Shown here: positions 2,878-11,573 of the stretch, in pieces
How the letters are laid out: every line of letters begins with the position of its first letter
Position numbering within the stretch: position 1 is the stretch's first letter
Virus record (IMG/VR): IMGVR_UViG_3300012974_000418
DNA length: 11,573 nt
Strand: one strand, 5' to 3'
Source: a virus
Taxonomy: Duplodnaviria > Heunggongvirae > Uroviricota > Caudoviricetes
Program-made: the position numbers and the translations under genes
The notes under the pieces: model-generated
What the model was told of the DNA's origin: nothing
The model's input: only the letters and a program-made list of their open reading frames with translations
The model's database searches: none

Positions 2878-3038
2878 TCTATCAGTTCGCTCCCATCCGT
2901 ACCAGTCCGCAAAATCCCCTGAATATCAAGCTCTCCGTAGATTCACAGTTCGTCACGGTTCGCGTCAGATCGTTGACAGCCGCACTCCATGACGGGTAAA
3001 AAGTGGATAAAATAATTTTACCCACCGGATTTTTACCC
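2878..3038 (+). other. attL-proximal region between the tRNA and int, with short direct repeats (possible integrase arm-type sites) and a possible int promoter
   Basis: CAGTTCG at 2883..2889 and 2946..2952, related GGTTCG at 2957..2962; TTGACA at 2973..2978 with TAAAAA at 2997..3002 (18-nt spacer). Confidence 0.3.
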
Positions 3039-4196
3039 ATGCTCACCGTTAAGCAGATTGAAGCAGCAAAGCCGAAAGAAAAACCATACCGCCTTCTCGA
3101 TGGTAATGGCCTGTATCTTTATGTCCCTGTATCAGGGAAAAAGGTATGGCAGCTTCGCTACAAGATTGACGGTAAGGAGAAAATCCTGACCGTAGGAAAA
3201 TATCAGCTTATGACTTTGCAAGAGGCAAGGGATAAAGCATGGAATGCGAGGAAAGACATCTCGGTTGGCATCGATCCGGTAAAAGCGAAAAAGGCTTCGT
3301 CTAACAACAATTCCTTTAGTGCGATTTACAAGGAATGGTACGAGCACAAGAAGCAAGTCTGGTCAGTAGGCTATGCAACTGAACTTGCAAAAATGTTTGA
3401 TGACGACATTTTACCTATCATCGGCGGCCTTGAAATTCAGGATATTGAGCCGATGCAACTGCTGGAAGTAATCCGCAGATTTGAAGATCGCGGTGCAATG
3501 GAGCGAGCCAACAAAGCCCGCAGAAGATGCGGCGAGGTTTTCCGTTACGCTATTGTCACTGGTAGGGCTAAATATAACCCGGCACCTGACCTTGCTGACG
3601 CCATGAAGGGATACCGCAAGAAAAACTTCCCGTTTCTTCCTGCAGACCAGATCCCGGCATTCAACAAAGCACTGGCAACATTTTCAGGAAGCATCGTATC
3701 GCTCATTGCGACCAAAGTTTTACGCTACACAGCCCTAAGAACGAAAGAGCTTCGTTCCATGCAATGGAAGAACGTCGATTTTGAAAACAGGATTATCACC
3801 ATCGACGCCAGTGTGATGAAGGGACGCAAAATTCATGTTGTCCCGATGTCAGACCAGGTGGTTGAACTTCTCACTACACTAAGCTCAATCACTAAACCAG
3901 TATCAGAGTTTGTTTTTGCCGGGCGCAACGATAAGAAGAAGCCAATCTGCGAGAACGCGGTGCTACTTGTGATCAAACAAATCGGCTATGAAGGTCTGGA
4001 AAGCGGTCACGGATTCAGGCATGAATTCAGCACGATTATGAACGAGCACGAATGGCCTGCTGATGCTATTGAAGTGCAACTGGCACATGCCAACGGCGGA
4101 TCTGTGCGCGGGATTTACAACCACGCTCAGTATCTCGATAAGCGCAGAGAAATGATGCAGTGGTGGGCGGACTGGCTTGATGAAAAGGTGGAGTAA
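3039..4196 (+). CDS. intS: Phage tyrosine integrase (IntS/CPS-53-type, argW-specific family)
   Basis: The tracked ORF 3003..4196 starts at GTG; the ATG at 3039 (MLTVKQIEAAK...) gives 385 aa, the length I recall for IntS-type integrases. N-terminal arm-binding-like domain; C-terminal catalytic region with HxxR (HGFRHEF) and a tyrosine near the C-terminus (RGIYNHAQYL). Confidence 0.88.
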   Translation: MLTVKQIEAAKPKEKPYRLLDGNGLYLYVPVSGKKVWQLRYKIDGKEKILTVGKYQLMTLQEARDKAWNARKDISVGIDPVKAKKASSNNNSFSAIYKEWYEHKKQVWSVGYATELAKMFDDDILPIIGGLEIQDIEPMQLLEVIRRFEDRGAMERANKARRRCGEVFRYAIVTGRAKYNPAPDLADAMKGYRKKNFPFLPADQIPAFNKALATFSGSIVSLIATKVLRYTALRTKELRSMQWKNVDFENRIITIDASVMKGRKIHVVPMSDQVVELLTTLSSITKPVSEFVFAGRNDKKKPICENAVLLVIKQIGYEGLESGHGFRHEFSTIMNEHEWPADAIEVQLAHANGGSVRGIYNHAQYLDKRREMMQWWADWLDEKVE

Positions 4197-4250
4197 TCAA
4201 CCTTTTCATCAATTTTCACATCACCAAAGCCATTTAGAACGTGGATGATG

Positions 4251-6188
4251 TTAACCTATTGCAACTCTCGCATTACAAAATGCCAAAGCATCAGCCTCCG
4301 TATTGAACTCAACAATAAAAAAGTTTTGCAATCTAATAACGGTGTCCGTTTGTGCAGTAAGATACAATCGAATTGTTCCTGATGATTCTGCTTTTCCAAT
4401 ACCGAAAGTACTTGTCCATTTGCCGTCTTCTGTATAGATAACACCTGCTGAAACAGATTCTGAGAATCTAAAGTTTCCTGTCCCGGAAACAAGTTTAGCG
4501 TTAACCCCCCATACATACCACAGCCCACCAGTTATTGAGGCAAATTCTGAACTTAACTGTGATGACCCAGCATCGATTGATACTTCCGCACAACCATAAC
4601 CAATTGCTATTCCATCATCTACACAGTTTGCTGTTACTTGTTTCGTGCCGGGGAATGACCACGTAGTAGAACCAACAACCCCTGAATATAAATCTGCTGC
4701 ACGTACAGCGCCATGATACCCTATGGCCCCCTTGATAGCTTGCACCGTGGGCGCTCCACGCAAACTTAAGTTGCTACTCGCTAATAATCCAGATTGAGAT
4801 GCAACGCTTTTAATAATCGGGACTCCGCCAACTTCCCCCCCCGCATAAAGATTCTCAACAATAAATGAACTATTAGCGTCAACGTTCATGCTGTAAATAT
4901 TCGAACTAACAGTGTCAATTCGACAGTTACGCGCAATTAAGTTTGAGTTAATTAATTCAATATTAGTTAAGTATGACTCTTCAATGTATGCCTGTGGTGT
5001 GTTTATTAATTTAACCTGTCTCGGAACTTCTTCAGAACCATCGCGATCAATGGTAGATGCCGTAGCAATGAGTTCAAACCATACGTTTCGTATAACAATA
5101 GGGGTATAAGGAACAATGTTATTATAGTCAATCCTTATGCCACCACCAGTGCATTGCTCCATGATGCTATCTTGAATTTGCACAGATCCACCGCCATCTT
5201 GAGCATTCACTATATCAATACAGTATTTAGATATACCTTGGAAATAACAGTCGCGAAATGTATCGCAGCCAGAATGCATGCCGGGCACGCTTTCAGCACG
5301 ATACCCATACTCAGACGTTCTGAAGTTAACAGTTTGATATGTATTACCTATATTACCAGTTGGCTTTTTAATACAAACACCAAAATCAGCCATACCTACA
5401 TAACTGATATCCCATCTCCCAGAGAACATATCATTCGGGTCATATAGCACCCCCACGGAATCAGATGTTGCCGCCCCCTGTATGCTTATTTTTGAAATAC
5501 TTCGACGCTCCCAGTTTGGTACTGATTGTAATACTTTAATTGCATAATCTTCACTCCCTGGTTTTAATATAGATGAGTATCCAGAACCATCAATATCAGC
5601 ATTGCCAGTTGAAACGCTTTCGCTATATATGCCTGGAGAAACAAGAACCCGCCCCCTTGCGGTGGTATCATTAATCGCCTGTTGTAAAGTTGAATAATCA
5701 CCACTATGTTTAATGTCATTCAAATTATCAATTAGCTTTCTTTTACCAGAGCCAATATTTTTTGCACCATCTTCTGCCTGTAGAGCCGATTTACTCTGTG
5801 CATCATTAACTAAATTTAATCCTCCTGGAGAGGACAATTCTTGTCTTAACTGATCTGGATCGTACTTCAGCACATTAGGAAAATAGAACTGCTGTGCTCC
5901 ATACGCGTCATAAACAGCCATGGAATGGCCTTGCACAGTCACAAATTTAGCAATCTGTCCGTTATATACAGGATAACCAGCAGCGTTAATGATGATTGGT
6001 TGAGAAACAGGAACGTGAGAGCCGTCTTCGTTCTCCACATAAACCTGAATCTGGTTTTCAGGATTTACCGGGTCAGTGTCAATTTTACCGATATAAATTT
6101 TGCCATTGGCTACGGCTTTAAAAGAACGAGCCATAGTGAAGAGTTGCGAAGGCATCGATACAATCACATTAGCTGTAATGTCTGTCAT
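4251..6188 (-). CDS. Tailspike protein: P22 gp9-like N-terminal head-binding domain (about 5853..6188) fused to a divergent receptor-binding/depolymerase body
   Basis: The first ~110 aa ([34 protein letters not shown]...VLKYDPDQ) are near-identical to the P22 gp9 N-terminal domain as I recall it; the remaining ~530 aa do not resemble the P22 body. Confidence 0.88.
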
Positions 6189-6288: not shown

Positions 6289-7212
6289 TCAGTAGTTATG
6301 TACTGAAGGAGGCAATTCTTTATTCTTAAGTCTCATCCATGCGGAAAGATTCGTTGGTCCGTCTGGCTCATTGATATCAACATCTCGTGTGTGATTGATT
6401 AAAACGTCTCTCGCCATTCCGATAACATACGAGAATTCATGACCGTAGTCGTAGCATCTGCCGGAATAGTTCGATTGAATTTGTTTTAATGCCGGATACA
6501 GTTCGCGGAATAATGCCTGTGAACGGTTAGCATAATCCCAGAGCCATACAAGGCTGTTTGCTTCTTTTGCAGAAAGCTCGTTGGTTTTCTTCTCTTGTTT
6601 GCCGATGAACTCACCTTCAAGCGGAACTCGAGCTGCAAGTGACAGTGCTTCGGTAAACTGCTCCTCACTGATTTCTTTGTACGAACATCCAAAATGGGAT
6701 TTCAGTGACGACCACATGGTGATCATCGCCTTAGCCTGTTTTTCTTTTGGCAGAGACTGACCGCGACTCATGACGAGTTGTTTAATGGCTTCCTGCTGCT
6801 CAGTGGTGATTTTACCCGGCAATGCCTTTTTAGCTTTGCGCGGGTTAACCACATGGCCTTTAGTCCAGTACTCGTAGAGCACATCGTCACACTCTTCCTG
6901 ATACTGGATTACATTGTCGCGGATTTCAGGGCGGACTTTGTTAGGGCTGATGGTTTGCAACCAGCCATTCAGTTTACGTAAAGCAAGGCAAATCATGGTC
7001 TGCACGCCGCCAACTGAAGGTATTGCGATTTCCACAATACCTTTAGCAAATCTTTGTTTTAACTTTGTAAACTGTGAAGCCCAATCCATACCCATTCCCT
7101 CAACGATAGGTTTCATTGGGGTATACGGTTCGCCGTTGTGATTGACAACATAAAGCTCTGCGCCGTGGAATGGCACGTTGATAGTAGATACTGCTGTTGC
7201 TATACTTTTCAT
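6289..7212 (-). CDS. Phage antirepressor (Ant-like, AntA-type N-terminal domain)
   Basis: 307-aa ORF placed between the arc-like gene and the tailspike, as ant is in P22 immI. The N-terminal region has the look of AntA-type antirepressor domains. RBS GAGGA 9 nt upstream of the ATG. Confidence 0.65.
7178..7206 (+). promoter_or_regulatory. Predicted sigma70 promoter firing antisense across the ant translation-initiation region (Psar-like)
   Basis: TTGATA (7178..7183), 17-nt spacer, TATACT (7201..7206) on the plus strand, inside the first codons of ant; predicted start about 7213. Confidence 0.45.
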
Positions 7213-7283
7213 GTCAGTTTTTCCTCAAAATTTACTGGCGATTTAAGCCCGAGCTACTCGCAATAGCTTGGGCTTTACTCATT
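7213..7283 (+). ncRNA. Candidate sar-like small antisense RNA complementary to the ant ribosome-binding site
   Basis: From the predicted start (~7213) across the ant RBS complement to a hairpin (arms 7245..7255 and 7265..7275, 10 Watson-Crick pairs plus one G-U, 9-nt loop) followed by a U-containing tail; about 68..71 nt. Confidence 0.4.
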
Positions 7284-7425
7284 CTGGACAAACAATTCCA
7301 TCCTTAGCTACTGACTCCTTTAGTCTCCTCAATACCTCATTACTGAACGACCGATCATCCTTTTTAGCGGACTGCTCCAAAGCCTTTTCCAGCCATTCTG
7401 GCATCCTTAATGTCTTAACTTTCAT
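7279..7425 (-). CDS. Arc-like ribbon-helix-helix repressor, 48 aa (below the ORF-track length cutoff)
   Basis: Hand-translated: MKVKTLRMPEWLEKALEQSAKKDDRSFSNEVLRRLKESVAKDGIVCPE. AAGGAG RBS 5 nt upstream of the ATG at 7423..7425; RHH pattern (MP..L...L....RS.N.EV..RL.ES); position between mnt and ant. Confidence 0.6.
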   Translation of the reverse strand: MKVKTLRMPEWLEKALEQSAKKDDRSFSNEVLRRLKESVAKDGIVCPE

Positions 7426-7529
7426 TTTTGCTCCTTTGTATGTGGTACGCATACATAGTATTTAGGTACGCATTGATAGTCAATAGATACCTACATATCC
7501 TGTGGTAAATAATTATTCAGGATGCGCCG
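7426..7529. promoter_or_regulatory. Divergent promoter/operator region between the arc-like and mnt-like genes (Pant-like and Pmnt-like)
   Basis: Minus strand: TTGACT (revcomp of 7478..7483), 17-nt spacer, TACTAT (revcomp of 7455..7460). Plus strand: TTGATA at 7473..7478 with TATCCT at 7496..7501. Imperfect palindrome GTATG-N7-CATAC (7438..7454) centred on GTAC; direct repeat GGTACGCAT at 7444..7452 and 7465..7473. Confidence 0.5.
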
Positions 7530-7781
7530 ATGTCTGATCGTAAGTACAAAAACCCTCAAGTGAATCTGAGGCTTCCTGTAGAGATAAAGGAACGTCTTAT
7601 TGAGCTGGCTGAGGCTAATTCTCGTTCATTAAATGCTGAGATGGTCGCGGCACTTGAAGCGTGGACCGAAAAAAATAAACACATTCAAGCACTAGACCTT
7701 GCAACTATAGCATCGCGGTTGATAGAGCTTGAGCATGAGGTTGAGAAGTTAAAATGTATGCATGGCAACGGTGAAAAATGA
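7530..7781 (+). CDS. Mnt-like ribbon-helix-helix repressor (maintenance-of-lysogeny repressor of the immI module)
   Basis: 83-aa ORF, the length I recall for P22 Mnt; N-terminal RHH pattern (VNLRLPVEIKERLIELAEANSRSLNAEMVAALEAW); divergent from the arc-like/ant genes. Confidence 0.7.
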   Translation: MSDRKYKNPQVNLRLPVEIKERLIELAEANSRSLNAEMVAALEAWTEKNKHIQALDLATIASRLIELEHEVEKLKCMHGNGEK

Positions 7782-8092
7782 AACGCATCGCTATTTTGTT
7801 AATATTGTTCTTCTCTACAATAGTTTGCGCCAAACAAAAATCAGATAATGGCGATCTTAAAGGCCTGCAAGAACTCATGATAACTTCGAAATTTGCTGGC
7901 ATGTGCGGCACAATCAAACAAATGGCAACATTTCAAGAATCAACAAAAATGCCTGGCGGAGATGAGTTCTTACATCGTTTTCTGACCACAGAGCAAGCAA
8001 GACTTGGAATGAATCCACAGGAGTTTCTTGAAGCATGCCAGAAGTCAATTTCAGCTTATACCAATTATTACAATCTAACTTCTGATAAATAA
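7778..8092 (+). CDS. Small exported protein of unknown function (N-terminal signal peptide); accessory gene in the mnt operon
   Basis: 104-aa ORF whose ATG overlaps the mnt stop (ATGA); hydrophobic N-terminus MKRIAILLILFFSTIVCA; AT-rich relative to flanking genes by eye. Confidence 0.6.
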   Translation: MKRIAILLILFFSTIVCAKQKSDNGDLKGLQELMITSKFAGMCGTIKQMATFQESTKMPGGDEFLHRFLTTEQARLGMNPQEFLEACQKSISAYTNYYNLTSDK

Positions 8093-8117
8093 TAGAAAGG
8101 ATTTTATAAATAACTTT

Positions 8118-8603
8118 ATGAAAAAATCACTATTAATTATCCCGCTTCTGCTGGCTGGATGCGCAAAAGTAAGTGACTATCAAGCAAGTTGCGAACAACG
8201 CTATCCAAAGCTTAGTGATATGGCTAATTGCCTTGATGCCAGCGTGAAGAACGACTCACGCATGGCATCAGCACCAACACCTAAGCTGTATGTCCTTGCT
8301 GCGAAGATGCTCGGGCAAGGTGTCGATGAAGGCAAGATAAGTGACGCACAGGCAAGACTTGAGCTTCAGAATCTTTATGTTCAATTACAAAGCCAAGAAC
8401 AAGCCCAACAAATAGCACAAAGCCAAGCATTCCAGCAGGCTTTATTGAATTATCAGGCTGTAAACACAATGCAAGCGATCGAGCAAAAAGCGAGACAGCC
8501 TGTTATAACTCAACCTTACCCAACGCGTGTTGACACCTATACAAACTGCAATTCAGGATTTGGAAATACCGTCACATGCAACAGTAGCAGCAACATTAGA
8601 TAA
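8118..8603 (+). CDS. Predicted outer-membrane lipoprotein of unknown function with a Gln-rich predicted helical region
   Basis: 161-aa ORF; lipobox LLAG-C with Cys at position 15 and Ala at +2 (no Asp inner-membrane retention signal); Q-rich segment (QLQSQEQAQQIAQSQAFQQALLNYQA); same strand as and downstream of mnt. Confidence 0.65.
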   Translation: MKKSLLIIPLLLAGCAKVSDYQASCEQRYPKLSDMANCLDASVKNDSRMASAPTPKLYVLAAKMLGQGVDEGKISDAQARLELQNLYVQLQSQEQAQQIAQSQAFQQALLNYQAVNTMQAIEQKARQPVITQPYPTRVDTYTNCNSGFGNTVTCNSSSNIR

Positions 8604-8605
8604 AG

Positions 8606-10717
8606 CTATTCATATTCATTCATACCGCTTAACGAGGCGACAATACCAACTCTCGACAAGCGATTGAATTCATCGCTACCAATAGCATCGCGTATTGCTT
8701 TTACGGCGGCTTTATTTGCCATAAATCTGCGTTCAGCCGCCGCTAATGCACCATCACTTGCCCCAACCTTAACTGCCTTTGTTGCCTCTTGGACAGCCTT
8801 TTCAATCGCGTAACGACCACTGCGGGATGCAGCTAACTTTTCTATCGTCCCTTTAGCTATAGATCCAGAAACAGCCCCCACAACACCGCCAACAATCCCG
8901 CCACCAGTGGTACCAACAATAGCCCCTGATGTTGAATTGCCTATTGCATTGAGAACTGTCATGACAGCTTTTGGCAGCCCTTGCTCAAGAGAGTTAATAG
9001 CCGGTATAGAGCGCCCCGTATGCTCTACATATCGCAGTGGTCTGGTTGCTGCTCTGGCAAGGTCGCTGTATGCCCTAGCAATCTTACCCATTTCTGGCGA
9101 GTGCCTGCTAATGGCAGTAATGTTCTGCGGCGTAAGGATCGACGCTATATGGAATACGCCAGCAGACTCTGATTTACCGCCACGCACCCCTTGCGATACC
9201 GCATCTTGTAATATTGATGCAATTGCTGGAGATCGCTCAGACTCTGGCAGTGAGCCAATAATCTGATGAAACTTTCCTGTCCCACTTTTTGATGAATTTT
9301 GCAAGGCTTTAATACCATCAGTGACTAACTGATCAGTTGCAAGGTTTCTAAACGCTGCTTCAGCCTGTTCTTGTGCTGTAAATCTTGCTTTTGACAGATC
9401 ATTAGCTTTTTGCCAGTCATCAAGAAAACCGCCATTTTGAGCCATTATGCGCATATCTTCCGTTGCTGCATCACGAAGCTCCGCCATGCGCCTTGCCGTA
9501 TTTGCCTCACCAGACCTTATATACTTCTGCTCAGCGTCAGCAAGTTTACTTCGCCATGCCTTCATGGCATCAAACGTGATTCCTTTTTTACCAGTTTTAG
9601 CATAAGCAGATGCAAATTGTTTCATCTCAGGAGTTAGCGGCATGCCAGCCAAAATATCACCCTGAATTGTAGCGTTCAGGTTTGACATTCTGGCCTTTGC
9701 GTCAGGCATCGTGGAGCGGACGCTATCCCATGCTGCCTTTTCTGAGTTCTTCATTTTATCAATACTTGCTAAAACCCTTTGTTTTATGGCTGCACTTTTT
9801 TCTGATGCAGATCCAGCCTCAGCACCAAGTTCATCAAGTGCTGAGTGGAATTTCGACTGTATTTCACTAAACGCCCTAGTATGTGCATCCTGAACAATTC
9901 CTGGTTCGGATGCCAATATCCCTTCGGCTTGTGCAATTCCACGACTTCCAGATCGCATTCCTGGTGTTAATGCGTTTATATCAATTCCAGCAGACTCAGC
10001 CGCTTTTGCTACATCTTCGGACACATTAGCGGCCTGACTGGCAATTGACTGACGCCCAGCACCTGACTTTGCCATCCTGGAAACATCATTAGCAGAATTC
10101 AGTGCTGCACCACCAAGAGCCTGTGAAACCCTTGGCGCAATAACGCGCCCGACACCTGAAAGAACGCCTTGAGCACCAATATTGATACCACCGTTAATGG
10201 CAGCATTTTGTGCAAAATCACCCTCCTGATTTGCAGCATCAGCAAGAGAACCTGCAATCATGTTTCCTGCGGAACCGATATCTCCAGCGAGCTTTGCTGG
10301 CGCTCCAGCAGCTTTTGCCGCTGTGCCAATTGGCAGGAGATACCCACCAATTGTTTCACCGGCTTGCGCATAAGGGTCTGTCGGTCGATCGACTGGACGA
10401 TAGACATCATCCAAAACCTTGGGGCCACCAAGCCCCTGGCTGATTGCATTAATCAGACTTGCGCCACCCTGCAATACGTCAAATGGTATGTTTACCAGAC
10501 CACGGCCAGCCTGTTCTGCAATTTGCCCTGCGCTTTGACCACCAGTGAGCCAGTCAGTGGCTTTTCCTACCAGAGATTGTTCTTCTGGCTGCGATTGGTT
10601 TTGAGTGGATTGATCACCAGAAGACAGCATCTGAGCAATGCGACGTGCTCCCTCAGTATCGCCGGCAGCATCAGCATTCCTTAACGCCGTCATCAACTGT
10701 TCGCGACTATAGGCCAT
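8606..10717 (-). CDS. Internal virion/DNA-ejection protein (P22 gp16-like by position), Ala/Gly-rich
   Basis: 703-aa ORF, the last late-strand gene before the immunity module, as gene 16 is in P22. Low-complexity A/G/S-rich composition with a glycine-zipper-like segment ([22 protein letters not shown]) near the C-terminus. Its ATG overlaps the upstream gene stop (TAATG). Confidence 0.55.
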
Positions 10718-11199
10718 TACTGCCCTCCGAGATATTTATTAATCAGGTCATCATCAGAAAGCTGCTGTTGAGACGGTTGTATGTCCTTCCCGTATTTCTG
10801 TTGCATACGTTTCTGAGCCATCTCAGTGGTTTTTATGATTGTTTTGATGGCTGCTCTGGCTGATTTTTCAGACTGATTTGGGGACAAACTACCAATAGCA
10901 TCCATTACCTTTTGCCCCTCGGCATTACTTAAAGCCCCCATCCCTTTCATCTGCTGAATGCCAGATAAGAATCCCTGAGATTTCAGTGTGTCAACCAGAG
11001 TTTCTGTATCAGCAGCCTCTGTTCCTGGAATGAATCTACTCGATAGTGGGTTTAGGTTTGTTCCGAAATATCCAGTGAATCCTGGGCTATTAAGAACTTT
11101 TGTAGCCGTCTCTATCGTTCTGGAGAGATTATCCATTCCAGAGTTGTACGCATCGGCCTTATCTCGCTTTGCCTGCTCCATAGCTTGCTGATTCTGCAA
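10717..11199 (-). CDS. Virion internal (ejection) protein candidate, 160 aa with TTG start; possibly the C-terminal part of a gene interrupted by an in-frame amber codon
   Basis: ORF starts at TTG (11197..11199) with AGGA 7 nt upstream; same frame as the upstream ORF, separated from it by a TAG at 11209..11211 and three sense codons; Q/N/A-rich. Confidence 0.5.
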
Positions 11200-11208
11200 T
11201 CTCTTGTC

Positions 11209-11573
11209 CTACAATTCAGCAAGTTTTAAGGCATTAGTTTCATTTGCGATGAGTCTGTCGTATTTCTTGTCCTCTAATTCCATCCGACGAAGATTGACAT
11301 TTTGTTGCGCAATATTGTTGCTTGCCCACCCTCTGGCATTTGTCATGTCATTATTACGGATTGTTTCGTTAATTCTTTGCTGATCCTGCTGGCGGCCAAC
11401 CATCTTGTCCTGAACATTGAAGTAGTCAATCGGACCAAGAGCAGCCATTCCAAGGTGATCAACAAACTCACCAAATCCTGAAGGGTTCTGCTGATACATC
11501 TGAGCAACGCTGTTAGGGTCAACACCGACGCGAGTCAGTTCCTTGGCGTTGTTTTGCAGCCATGATTGCATTG
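11209..11573 (-). CDS. Virion internal (ejection) protein candidate (gp20/gp7-like by position); likely 5'-truncated by the window edge
   Basis: Open frame from the window edge to the TAG at 11209..11211; the ATG at 11569..11571 is only the first start inside the window and the true start may lie upstream. Confidence 0.5.
   Translation of the reverse strand, partial: MQSWLQNNAKELTRVGVDPNSVAQMYQQNPSGFGEFVDHLGMAALGPIDYFNVQDKMVGRQQDQQRINETIRNNDMTNARGWASNNIAQQNVNLRRMELEDKKYDRLIANETNALKLAEL

What the first reader, a model, noticed from the sequence alone, without database searches (positions are those of the whole stretch)
7778..8603. Two exported proteins (secreted protein plus outer-membrane lipoprotein) in the sieA-equivalent slot, co-transcribed with the lysogenic repressor mnt
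In P22 the interval between gene 16 and mnt carries sieA (superinfection exclusion) and small accessory genes, on the mnt strand. Here that slot holds two different genes: a 104-aa protein with a signal peptide, translationally coupled to mnt, and a 161-aa lipoprotein (LLAG-C lipobox, Ala at +2, so predicted outer-membrane sorting) with a Gln-rich helical region. Both lie downstream of mnt on the same strand with no intervening terminator, so they should be expressed in the lysogen. Neither looks like a polytopic inner-membrane protein, which is how I recall SieA. Prophage-encoded outer-membrane lipoproteins are known to act in receptor masking (Cor, Llp) or serum resistance (Bor). This pair is therefore a candidate undescribed superinfection-exclusion or lysogenic-conversion module.
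Basis: partly seen in the sequence, partly recalled or inferred. Interest (0 to 1): 0.8.

Follow-up and report, generated by a model that had tools for sequence, protein, structure and literature searches.

The report
Two independent prophage envelope-protein genes
In an E. coli P22-like prophage, two small genes for exported proteins (one periplasmic, one an outer-membrane-type lipoprotein) sit where phage P22 keeps its exclusion gene sieA; they are real, conserved and probably expressed by the prophage, but their function is untested and they are separate cassettes, not a dedicated pair.

Summary
ORF104 (7778-8092) and ORF161 (8118-8603) are real genes on the mnt strand, between mnt and the 3' end of gene 16 of a P22-like prophage at tRNA-Arg. 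ORF104 has a Sec signal peptide and overlaps the mnt stop (ATGA). ORF161 has a canonical lipobox (LLAG|C, Ala at +2) and a Gln-rich helix.

Neither resembles the three-TM protein SieA or any characterised family in sequence or predicted fold. They belong to phrog_19844 and phrog_6067, both of unknown function.

The "pair" reading is not supported. ORF161 occurs in 186 of 5,426 complete E. coli genomes and ORF104 in 18. In 80 viral contigs ORF161 always abuts gene 16, but ORF104 is its upstream neighbour in only 10.

ORF104 relatives sit at other lysogeny-associated sites: next to mnt, next to gene 16, and next to cI in Pseudomonas prophages.

Published RNA-seq of prophage Gally (98.8% identical lipoprotein) shows prophage expression, about 16-fold higher in macrophages. 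Deleting Gally gave no macrophage phenotype.

Best guess: envelope-level superinfection exclusion, a functional substitute for SieA (confidence about 0.4). A Bor-like host-fitness role is the main rival. These are uncharacterised members of a known kind, morons of the P22-like "ant moron". Interest is moderate.

The parts
7459..7497 (.). 18-nt imperfect inverted repeat in the arc-mnt intergenic region (operator-like), overlapping divergent promoter-like hexamers
   Evidence: arms 7459-7476 / 7480-7497, 78% complementary; promoter-like sites. Function is inferred by analogy with P22 Oarc/Omnt.
7473..7513 (+). candidate Pmnt: two overlapping sigma-70-like matches (TTGATA-17-TATCCT; TAGATA-18-AATAAT)
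   Evidence: These are consensus matches only, and their number is no higher than in shuffles.
7530..7781 (+). mnt (Arc/Mnt ribbon-helix-helix repressor, 83 aa)
   Evidence: Pfam Arc E=3e-10; 42% identity to P22 Mnt over the RHH domain; 95% nt identity to CUS-3 mnt
7778..8092 (+). ORF104: Sec-exported periplasmic protein. Predicted three-helix bundle with invariant C43/C87 and an FQESTKMPGGDEF loop. Start overlaps the mnt stop (ATGA).
   Evidence: (phrog_19844, E=4e-62)
8118..8603 (+). ORF161: lipoprotein (lipobox LLAG|C15, Ala +2). N-terminal helical domain with invariant C25/C38, Gln-rich helix 76-125, C-terminal C144-x9-C154 hairpin.
   Evidence: (phrog_6067, E=3e-110)
8606..10717 (-). gene 16 (ejection protein), convergent with ORF161; the stops are 2 nt apart
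   Evidence: annotated as P22-gp16 family in the 98.7% identical TW10573 locus
7279..7452 (-). arc
   Evidence: Pfam Arc
6289..7212 (-). ant (antirepressor)
   Evidence: Pfam P22_AR_N + P22_AR_C
4251..6188 (-). tailspike (P22-type head-binding domain); far end of the variable 'ant moron' interval
   Evidence: Pfam Head_binding E=6e-67

Best explanation
The finding is two separate prophage accessory genes (morons) that recombination has placed side by side in the variable region between gene 16 and the tailspike gene of a P22-like prophage.

ORF161 is a Lol-sortable (outer-membrane-type) lipoprotein of family phrog_6067. It is the regular occupant of the position that abuts the 3' end of gene 16, the place sieA holds in P22.

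ORF104 is a Sec-exported periplasmic three-helix protein of family phrog_19844. It rides on the mnt message through an ATGA overlap.

In most prophages ORF161 has its own conserved leader of about 38 nt (an extended -10-like TGnTATCCT plus a strong SD). In this window homology starts at the ATG and that leader is missing. ORF161 is therefore most likely expressed here as the third gene of the mnt transcript.

Most likely role: envelope-level superinfection exclusion. The lipoprotein would act from the outer membrane or periplasm on a secondary receptor or on the trans-envelope ejection conduit of incoming P22-like phages, replacing SieA functionally but not by homology. ORF104 would be a more general periplasmic factor that protects lysogens.

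Shown: the genes are real, they carry export signals, their position is conserved, the two are independent, and a near-identical lipoprotein is expressed from a prophage.

Inferred: co-transcription with mnt here, outer-membrane location, and the exclusion function itself.
For: Position:
- In 75 or more of 80 IMG/VR contigs ORF161 abuts gene 16, which comes in three sequence types.
- The same holds in Serratia, Morganella, Salmonella phage VSe13 and E. coli. A Proteus phage also carries a homologue, whose context was not read.
- In Morganella it is the only gene between tailspike and gene 16.
- In P22 sieA holds that position, with its own promoter.

Alternative to sieA: none of 75 loci has an ORF with three or more TM segments in the interval.

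Other occupants of the interval: several are also envelope proteins. These are an 81-aa two-TM protein, a lipoprotein with a weak PEGA-domain match and SieA itself; a 122-aa protein with a possible N-terminal export signal (by eye only) sits there too.

Expression: Gally GALLYPH_13 (98.8% identical) reads 70 against a prophage median of 15.6 in LB. It reaches log2 10.3 in macrophages, while the adjacent gene 16 stays at about 4.

Selection: dN/dS is 0.03-0.09.

ORF104 relatives sit at lysogeny-associated sites:
- ATGA-coupled to mnt;
- alone next to gene 16 in Salmonella;
- after an Arc-like gene in a Yersinia siphovirus prophage;
- beside cI in a Pseudomonas prophage.

Precedent: lipoproteins encoded inside structural clusters of mEpimmI coliphages exclude phages that use matching receptors (PMC11893012).
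Against: No sequence or fold similarity to any characterised exclusion protein.

No phenotype data exist.

The lipoprotein is nearly invariant across prophages with very different gene 16 types and across hosts. That fits a conserved host target at least as well as a phage target.

A remote family member is chromosomal and not in a phage, as is an ORF104 relative in Sulfurimonas.

Expression rises in macrophages and in the bacteria-only B1/B6 samples, which is also typical of host-adaptation genes. In LB it falls just under the 5x moron cut-off used by the authors, who called Gally moron-free.
Confidence: 0.4

Rival explanations
1. Lysogenic-conversion fitness factors for the host (Bor-like). 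The lipoprotein, and perhaps ORF104, alter envelope properties that matter in the animal host or under envelope stress, and have nothing to do with other phages.
For: The Gally homologue rises about 16-fold from LB to macrophages and is also up in the bacteria-only B1/B6 samples.

The gene is found in O104:H4, O26:H11, ETEC B7A and AIEC LF82.

Remote family members are chromosomal lipoproteins.

Strong purifying selection fits a conserved host target.
Against: Deleting the whole Gally prophage did not change LF82 survival in THP-1 macrophages.

The close subfamily was found only in P22-like prophages, always beside the ejection-protein genes.

The excess of pathogens in the hit lists may only reflect which genomes get sequenced.
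Confidence: 0.25
2. One reading: ORF104 and ORF161 form a dedicated two-protein module, a periplasmic partner plus an outer-membrane lipoprotein, that work together.
For: They are adjacent, on the same strand and 25 nt apart with no terminator between them. The arrangement recurs in 18 complete E. coli genomes, including O104:H4.
Against: ORF161 is in 186 genomes and ORF104 in only 18.

Only 10 of 80 viral contigs have ORF104 upstream of ORF161. Mnt (32), a convergent orf122 (18), a convergent lipoprotein with a weak PEGA match (16) and an 81-aa TM protein (2) are the alternatives.

The 70% allele of ORF104 occurs without ORF161. Distant relatives occur alone in other prophage types.

Homology between arrangements breaks exactly at the ORF161 ATG, which marks a recombination joint.
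Confidence: 0.05
3. A role in the phage's own lytic cycle. One possibility is Llp-like masking of a receptor late in infection, so that progeny are not lost on debris. Another is help with envelope passage or lysis.
For: The genes lie inside the late/structural region next to the ejection genes. T5 Llp is a precedent for a lipoprotein with that role (own knowledge).
Against: The genes are on the strand opposite the late operon. They are expressed in the uninduced lysogen while late genes are silent. They are absent from most P22-like phages: only 5 phage records carry ORF161.
Confidence: 0.1
4. Passenger genes: captured bacterial envelope proteins kept by linkage to mnt and gene 16, with no benefit specific to phage or lysogeny.
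For: Both families include chromosomal, non-phage members. No function is known.
Against: dN/dS is 0.03-0.09 within prophages. Position is conserved across at least five genera. ORF161 has a conserved dedicated leader and is actively expressed.
Confidence: 0.1

Closest known systems
P22 SieA (superinfection exclusion A)
   Same: Same genomic place: between gene 16 and mnt, abutting the 3' end of gene 16, on the strand opposite the late operon, and prophage-expressed (PMC10883804). Similar size (161 vs 162-164 aa). It targets the envelope.
   Different: [quoted passage not shown] ORF161 and ORF104 have only cleavable N-terminal signals, no TM segment and no similarity to SieA.
Receptor-masking lipoproteins: Cor (phi80/N15), Llp (T5), Lpp021/Lpp010 of mEpimmI phages
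   Same: Phage-encoded lipoproteins with a lipobox, some located inside structural gene clusters. They exclude phages by acting on an outer-membrane receptor (PMC11893012).
   Different: No sequence relationship. The PHROG Cor match (E=0.078) covers only the signal peptide. tblastn finds ORF161 only in five P22-like phage records. ORF161 is larger and mainly helical. P22-like phages bind O-antigen first, so any target would be a secondary receptor or the ejection conduit.
Lambda Bor
   Same: A prophage-expressed outer-membrane lipoprotein moron in enterobacterial prophages.
   Different: No Pfam or PHROG match to Bor. No serum-resistance data. A different genomic site.
The 'ant moron' / immI region of P22-like phages (Villafane et al. 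2008, PMC2629481)
   Same: This is that region: a mosaic insert between gene 16 and the tailspike gene that carries mnt/arc/ant plus variable genes of unknown function.
   Different: The 2008 description predates these two gene families. Their export signals and the fixed position of the lipoprotein beside gene 16 were not found described in the full-text searches made here.
T4 Spackle (periplasmic exclusion protein), considered for ORF104
   Same: A small, signal-peptide-bearing, helical periplasmic phage protein.
   Different: Foldseek of the ORF104 model against the PDB gave no match with E<1, and the PDB sequence profile search gave none.

Membership tests
SieA | Gene lies between genes 16 and 9, next to gene 16, on the opposite strand | tested here: met
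SieA | Integral inner-membrane protein with 3-4 TM helices and no signal peptide (PMC10883804) | tested here: not met
   Kyte-Doolittle 19-mer scan: P22 SieA has three hydrophobic regions. ORF161 and ORF104 have only the N-terminal signal.
SieA | Sequence similarity, including the FxRYPxEAxxFNK motif | tested here: not met
   BLASTP finds no alignment at E<=100. The motif is absent on reading the sequences.
SieA | Blocks DNA injection by P22-like phages | not testable with these tools
   Needs plating, K+ efflux and DNA-entry assays.
Bacterial lipoprotein (Lgt/Lsp substrate), ORF161 | Signal peptide ending in the lipobox [LVI][ASTVI][GAS]C | tested here: met
   LLAG|C15. Present in 31/31 close and 40/44 distant homologues.
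Bacterial lipoprotein, outer-membrane sorting (Lol rule) | No Asp at +2 | tested here: met
   +2 is Ala in 27, Val in 2 and Thr in 2 of 31 homologues. Actual localisation was not tested.
Sec-exported periplasmic protein, ORF104 | N-terminal n/h/c signal with an AXA-type cleavage site and no other TM segment | tested here: met
   Cleavage and localisation were not tested.
Cor / Llp / Bor lipoprotein families | Sequence homology of the mature protein | tested here: not met
   The Cor PHROG match covers residues 1-29 only, at E=0.078.
PHROG families phrog_6067 (ORF161) and phrog_19844 (ORF104) | Full-length HMM match | tested here: met
   E=2.6e-110 and 3.7e-62; both are annotated as unknown function. 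All 44 distant relatives also match phrog_6067.
Moron | Present in some and absent from other related phages at the same site | tested here: met
Moron | Expressed from the repressed prophage independently of the lytic operons | tested here: inconclusive
   The Gally homologue reads 4.5x the prophage median in LB, below the authors' 5x cut-off. It is among the top three prophage genes in macrophages while gene 16 stays silent. No data exist for this window's arrangement.
Dedicated two-gene module (ORF104 + ORF161) | Consistent co-occurrence of the two genes | tested here: not met
   18 vs 186 genomes; 10 of 80 viral contigs; ORF104 alleles occur without ORF161.
T4 Spackle-like periplasmic inhibitor (ORF104) | Fold similarity | tested here: not met
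   No PDB Foldseek match with E<1.

The most novel reading that the evidence does not exclude
The phrog_6067 lipoprotein is a new, non-homologous family of superinfection-exclusion proteins. It would block DNA delivery by P22-like podoviruses from the outer-membrane or periplasmic side, by masking a secondary receptor such as OmpA/OmpC or by jamming the gp7/gp20/gp16 conduit. It would be the functional alternative to the inner-membrane protein SieA at the same locus. ORF104 (phrog_19844) would be a second, broadly distributed periplasmic exclusion factor of Proteobacterial prophages.
Probability: 0.3. Interest if true: 0.6.

Novelty: new member of a known kind. Interest (0 to 1): 0.4.

Why it matters

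A conserved lipoprotein at the same position is present in 3.4% of complete E. coli genomes. Carriers include O104:H4, O26:H11, ETEC and AIEC strains. It is an obvious and cheap candidate for a second exclusion mechanism, acting on the outer side of the envelope.

If confirmed, it would bear on phage-therapy host range in pathogenic E. coli. It would also offer a handle on how the P22 ejection conduit crosses the periplasm. If it proves to be a host-adaptation factor instead, its macrophage-responsive expression would be the lead.

Either way the result here is a sharpened hypothesis, not a discovery.

Tried and rejected
- **Family libraries.** Pfam, NCBIfam and PADLOC scans gave nothing above threshold. 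The NCBIfam GspK hit scored 18.9 bits against a cut-off of 130 and lies in the Gln-rich helix. It probably explains one stray 'GspK' annotation and was rejected.
- **PHROG Cor hit.** It covers the signal peptide only, so it was rejected.
- **Coiled coil.** A heptad scan of residues 76-125 found no canonical register (5 of 15 a/d positions strongly hydrophobic). An Lpp-like coiled coil is therefore not supported.
- **st313-td lead.** This is the macrophage-survival gene of the P22-like prophage BTP1. It is bstA, lies next to cI and is unrelated.
- **Literature.** Searches by protein accession, locus tag and PHROG id found no paper.
- **Tool failures.** The search for related loci with the distant alignment A3 failed because no stretch was conserved enough.
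- **Neighbours of distant ORF104 relatives.** The Sulfurimonas 131-aa and Yersinia 151-aa proteins have no Pfam match and gave no clue.
- **Internal promoter.** No sigma-70-like promoter for ORF161 was found inside ORF104.

Full report
**Setting.** The window is the right end of a P22-like (Lederbergvirus) prophage of E. coli, integrated beside tRNA-Arg(CCT).
- Gene order: mlaA, yfdC, tRNA-Arg (2803-2877), integrase (3003-4196, +), tailspike (4251-6188, -), ant (6289-7212, -), arc (7279-7452, -), mnt (7530-7781, +), ORF104 (7778-8092, +), ORF161 (8118-8603, +), gene 16 (8606-10717, -) and part of gene 20.
- The 7400-8700 stretch is 98.7% identical to E. coli TW10573. There RefSeq annotates the same order and calls the large convergent gene a P22-gp16 family ejection protein.
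Gene 16 is followed on the opposite strand by sieA (with its own promoter), a terminator, orf59a and mnt.

**Observation.**
- The mnt stop and the ORF104 start overlap as ATGA.
- ORF104 begins MKRIAILLILFFSTIVCA|K. The only hydrophobic 19-mer windows are at the N-terminus.
- Cys17 varies among homologues (Phe in the O104:H4 allele, ANA|E in others). This is therefore a Sec signal and not a lipobox.
- ORF161 begins MKKSLLIIPLLLAG|C. All 31 close homologues keep a lipobox and none has Asp at +2.
- Residues 76-125 hold 15 Gln in 50 residues and are predicted as one long helix.
- No terminator-like site lies between mnt and the end of ORF161.

**Are they real genes?**
- ORF161 has 94 homologous 90%-clusters across Enterobacterales and 251 representatives in a profile search.
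- C25, C38, Q22 and A79 are invariant, and a C-terminal C-x9-C hairpin is nearly invariant.
- Against other E. coli and Salmonella phage alleles, dN/dS is 0.03-0.09 at dS 0.14-0.58. One allele shows 0 non-synonymous against 22 synonymous changes.
- ORF104 has 18 close clusters and more than 315 relatives by profile search. They come from Pseudomonas, Yersinia, Salmonella, Sulfurimonas, Methylophaga and Nitrosomonas.
- In ORF104, C43 and C87 are invariant, and so are most residues of the FQESTKMPGGDEF loop.

**What they are not.**
- Neither protein matches Pfam, NCBIfam or PADLOC. Both match PHROGs of unknown function, phrog_19844 and phrog_6067.
- AlphaFold2 gives ORF104 a three-helix bundle (mean pLDDT 76).
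- It gives ORF161 a helical N-domain (blocks at pLDDT 79-87), a long helix and a low-confidence hairpin (mean pLDDT 65).
- PDB and BFVD searches return only generic helical bundles.
[quoted passage not shown] ORF161 shows no similarity to it, and neither mature protein has a TM segment.

**The pair is not a module.**
- Among 5,426 complete E. coli genomes, ORF161 is in 186 and the ORF104 allele in 18. All 18 carry the window's arrangement.
- In 80 IMG/VR contigs carrying ORF161 (at least 98% identical), the downstream neighbour is gene 16 in 75. It comes in three unrelated sequence types (39, 23 and 13 contigs).
- The upstream neighbour in those contigs varies:

| Upstream neighbour of ORF161 | Contigs (of 80) |
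|---|---|
| mnt directly | 32 |
| convergent orf122 | 18 |
| convergent lipoprotein with a weak PEGA match | 16 |
| ORF104 | 10 |
| 81-aa two-TM protein | 2 |

- Annotated E. coli examples show the same classes.
- In Serratia and Morganella the lipoprotein again abuts gene 16. In Morganella it is the only gene between tailspike and gene 16.
- A 70%-identical ORF104 allele is also ATGA-coupled to mnt, but in prophages whose slot holds other genes and no ORF161.
- A 48% relative sits alone beside gene 16 in Salmonella P22-like prophages.
- A 60% relative follows an Arc-like gene in an immI-like insert of a Yersinia siphovirus prophage.
- Pseudomonas relatives lie between cI and the early-left genes of lambdoid prophages.
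- A Sulfurimonas relative is chromosomal.

**The recombination joint.**
- In five other arrangement classes ORF161 is preceded by a conserved leader of about 38 nt, ATGGTATCCTG.GCAAAACTAAGGAGAGTTAACCAT. It carries a TGnTATCCT-type extended -10-like motif and a strong SD.
- In the window homology begins at the ATG, and the 25-nt spacer has neither feature.
- Where a convergent gene separates mnt from ORF161, as in Gally, the gene must have its own promoter.
- Here it has most likely become the third cistron of the mnt transcript. That is an inference.

**Expression.**
- Gally, the P22-like prophage of AIEC LF82, encodes a 98.8% identical lipoprotein, GALLYPH_13.
- In the S1 Table of PMC9928086 it reads 70 against a prophage median of 15.6 in LB. 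That is second only to the C2 repressor, and just under the authors' 5x cut-off of 78.
- Its log2 values are 7.9-8.2 in the B1/B6 samples, 10.3 in macrophages at 1 h and 8.6 at 6 h.
- The adjacent gene 16 stays at 3.6-4.2 throughout.
- The authors reported Gally as moron-free.
- Deleting Gally did not change survival in THP-1 macrophages.

**Mechanism.** The evidence favours prophage-expressed envelope proteins.
- I commit to envelope-level superinfection exclusion as the most likely role of the lipoprotein (about 0.4).
- It holds the sieA position in prophages that have no SieA-like gene: none of 75 intervals contains an ORF with three or more TM segments.
- Several other occupants of that interval are also envelope proteins.
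- The close subfamily was found only in P22-like prophages.
- Lipoproteins in structural clusters of other coliphages do exclude phages through their receptors.
- Against this, there is no homology to known exclusion proteins. The near-invariance of the protein next to hypervariable ejection genes fits a conserved host target. Remote relatives are chromosomal. Expression is host-responsive.
- These points sustain a Bor-like fitness role as the main rival (about 0.25), weakened by the null macrophage phenotype of the Gally deletion.
- ORF104 is spread across podovirus, siphovirus and lambdoid prophages, so it cannot be specific to P22 ejection proteins. Its role is more general and less clear.

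**Novelty.**
- The region is the known 'ant moron' (PMC2629481).
- The genes are already catalogued as hypothetical proteins or 'lipoprotein'.
- What this analysis adds is the fixed position of phrog_6067 beside gene 16, its prophage expression, and the independence of the two genes.
- They are uncharacterised members of a known kind.

Noticed in passing
window 11209-11211 (- strand), within gene 20 (10717-11573+): In-frame TAG in the ejection-protein gene 20. The 98.5% identical FORC_041 prophage has CAG (Gln) at that codon and an intact 421-aa gene. This prophage therefore probably cannot make infectious virions, yet it keeps the mnt-ORF104-ORF161 genes intact.
   Followed up: yes
L012 (phage Gally) 2947-3366, - strand: GALLYPH_14 (the Sf6 'protein 15' type) is a second lipoprotein, with lipobox LLSG|C and a weak PEGA match. 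It is convergent with the ORF161 homologue. It is the upstream neighbour in 16 of 80 viral contigs and reaches log2 11 in macrophages (PMC9928086 S1 Table).
   Followed up: partly
L027 1680-1718, L012 3465-3503, L031/L032 2563-2603, L002 3464-3502; absent at window 8093-8117: A conserved leader of about 38 nt precedes ORF161 in five other arrangement classes. It has a TGnTATCCT-like extended -10 motif and the SD TAAGGAG. The window lacks it, and homology starts at the ATG. The hexamer TATCCT is also the -10 of the window's candidate Pmnt (7496-7501).
   Followed up: partly
alignment A1, ORF161 residues ~128-161: The C-terminal ~30 residues come in two types, ...TNCNSGFGNTVTCNSSSNIR and ...TTNCTTYGNQTRCQSY. 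They are exchanged after the conserved 'ARQP' between otherwise near-identical N-terminal parts. This suggests a separately swapped module, possibly one that sets specificity.
   Followed up: no
L013-L016 5328-6430; L021 5005-5541: In other P22-like prophages the same slot carries toxin-antitoxin-like genes. These are a SocA_Panacea-domain gene with small neighbours, and HicA plus DUF1902. A 122-129-aa protein with a possible N-terminal export signal sits next to gene 16.
   Followed up: no
L003 (E. coli TW10573) 12284-17404: In the closest complete-genome relative the prophage is broken directly after gene 16. A RecT fragment and early genes follow, then an IS100 insertion. That copy is therefore a rearranged remnant.
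   Followed up: no
window 4197-4250: The integrase and tailspike genes are only 54 nt apart. TW10573 and O104:H4 carry an acyltransferase (O-antigen modification) gene there, so this prophage lacks that conversion gene.
   Followed up: no
L023 7001-7390: A distant phrog_6067 member (129 aa, without the Gln-rich helix) lies in a non-phage chromosomal context, beside pseudouridine synthase, a Ser/Thr kinase and a CoA-transferase. The phage lipoprotein may descend from a bacterial envelope lipoprotein family of unknown function.
   Followed up: partly
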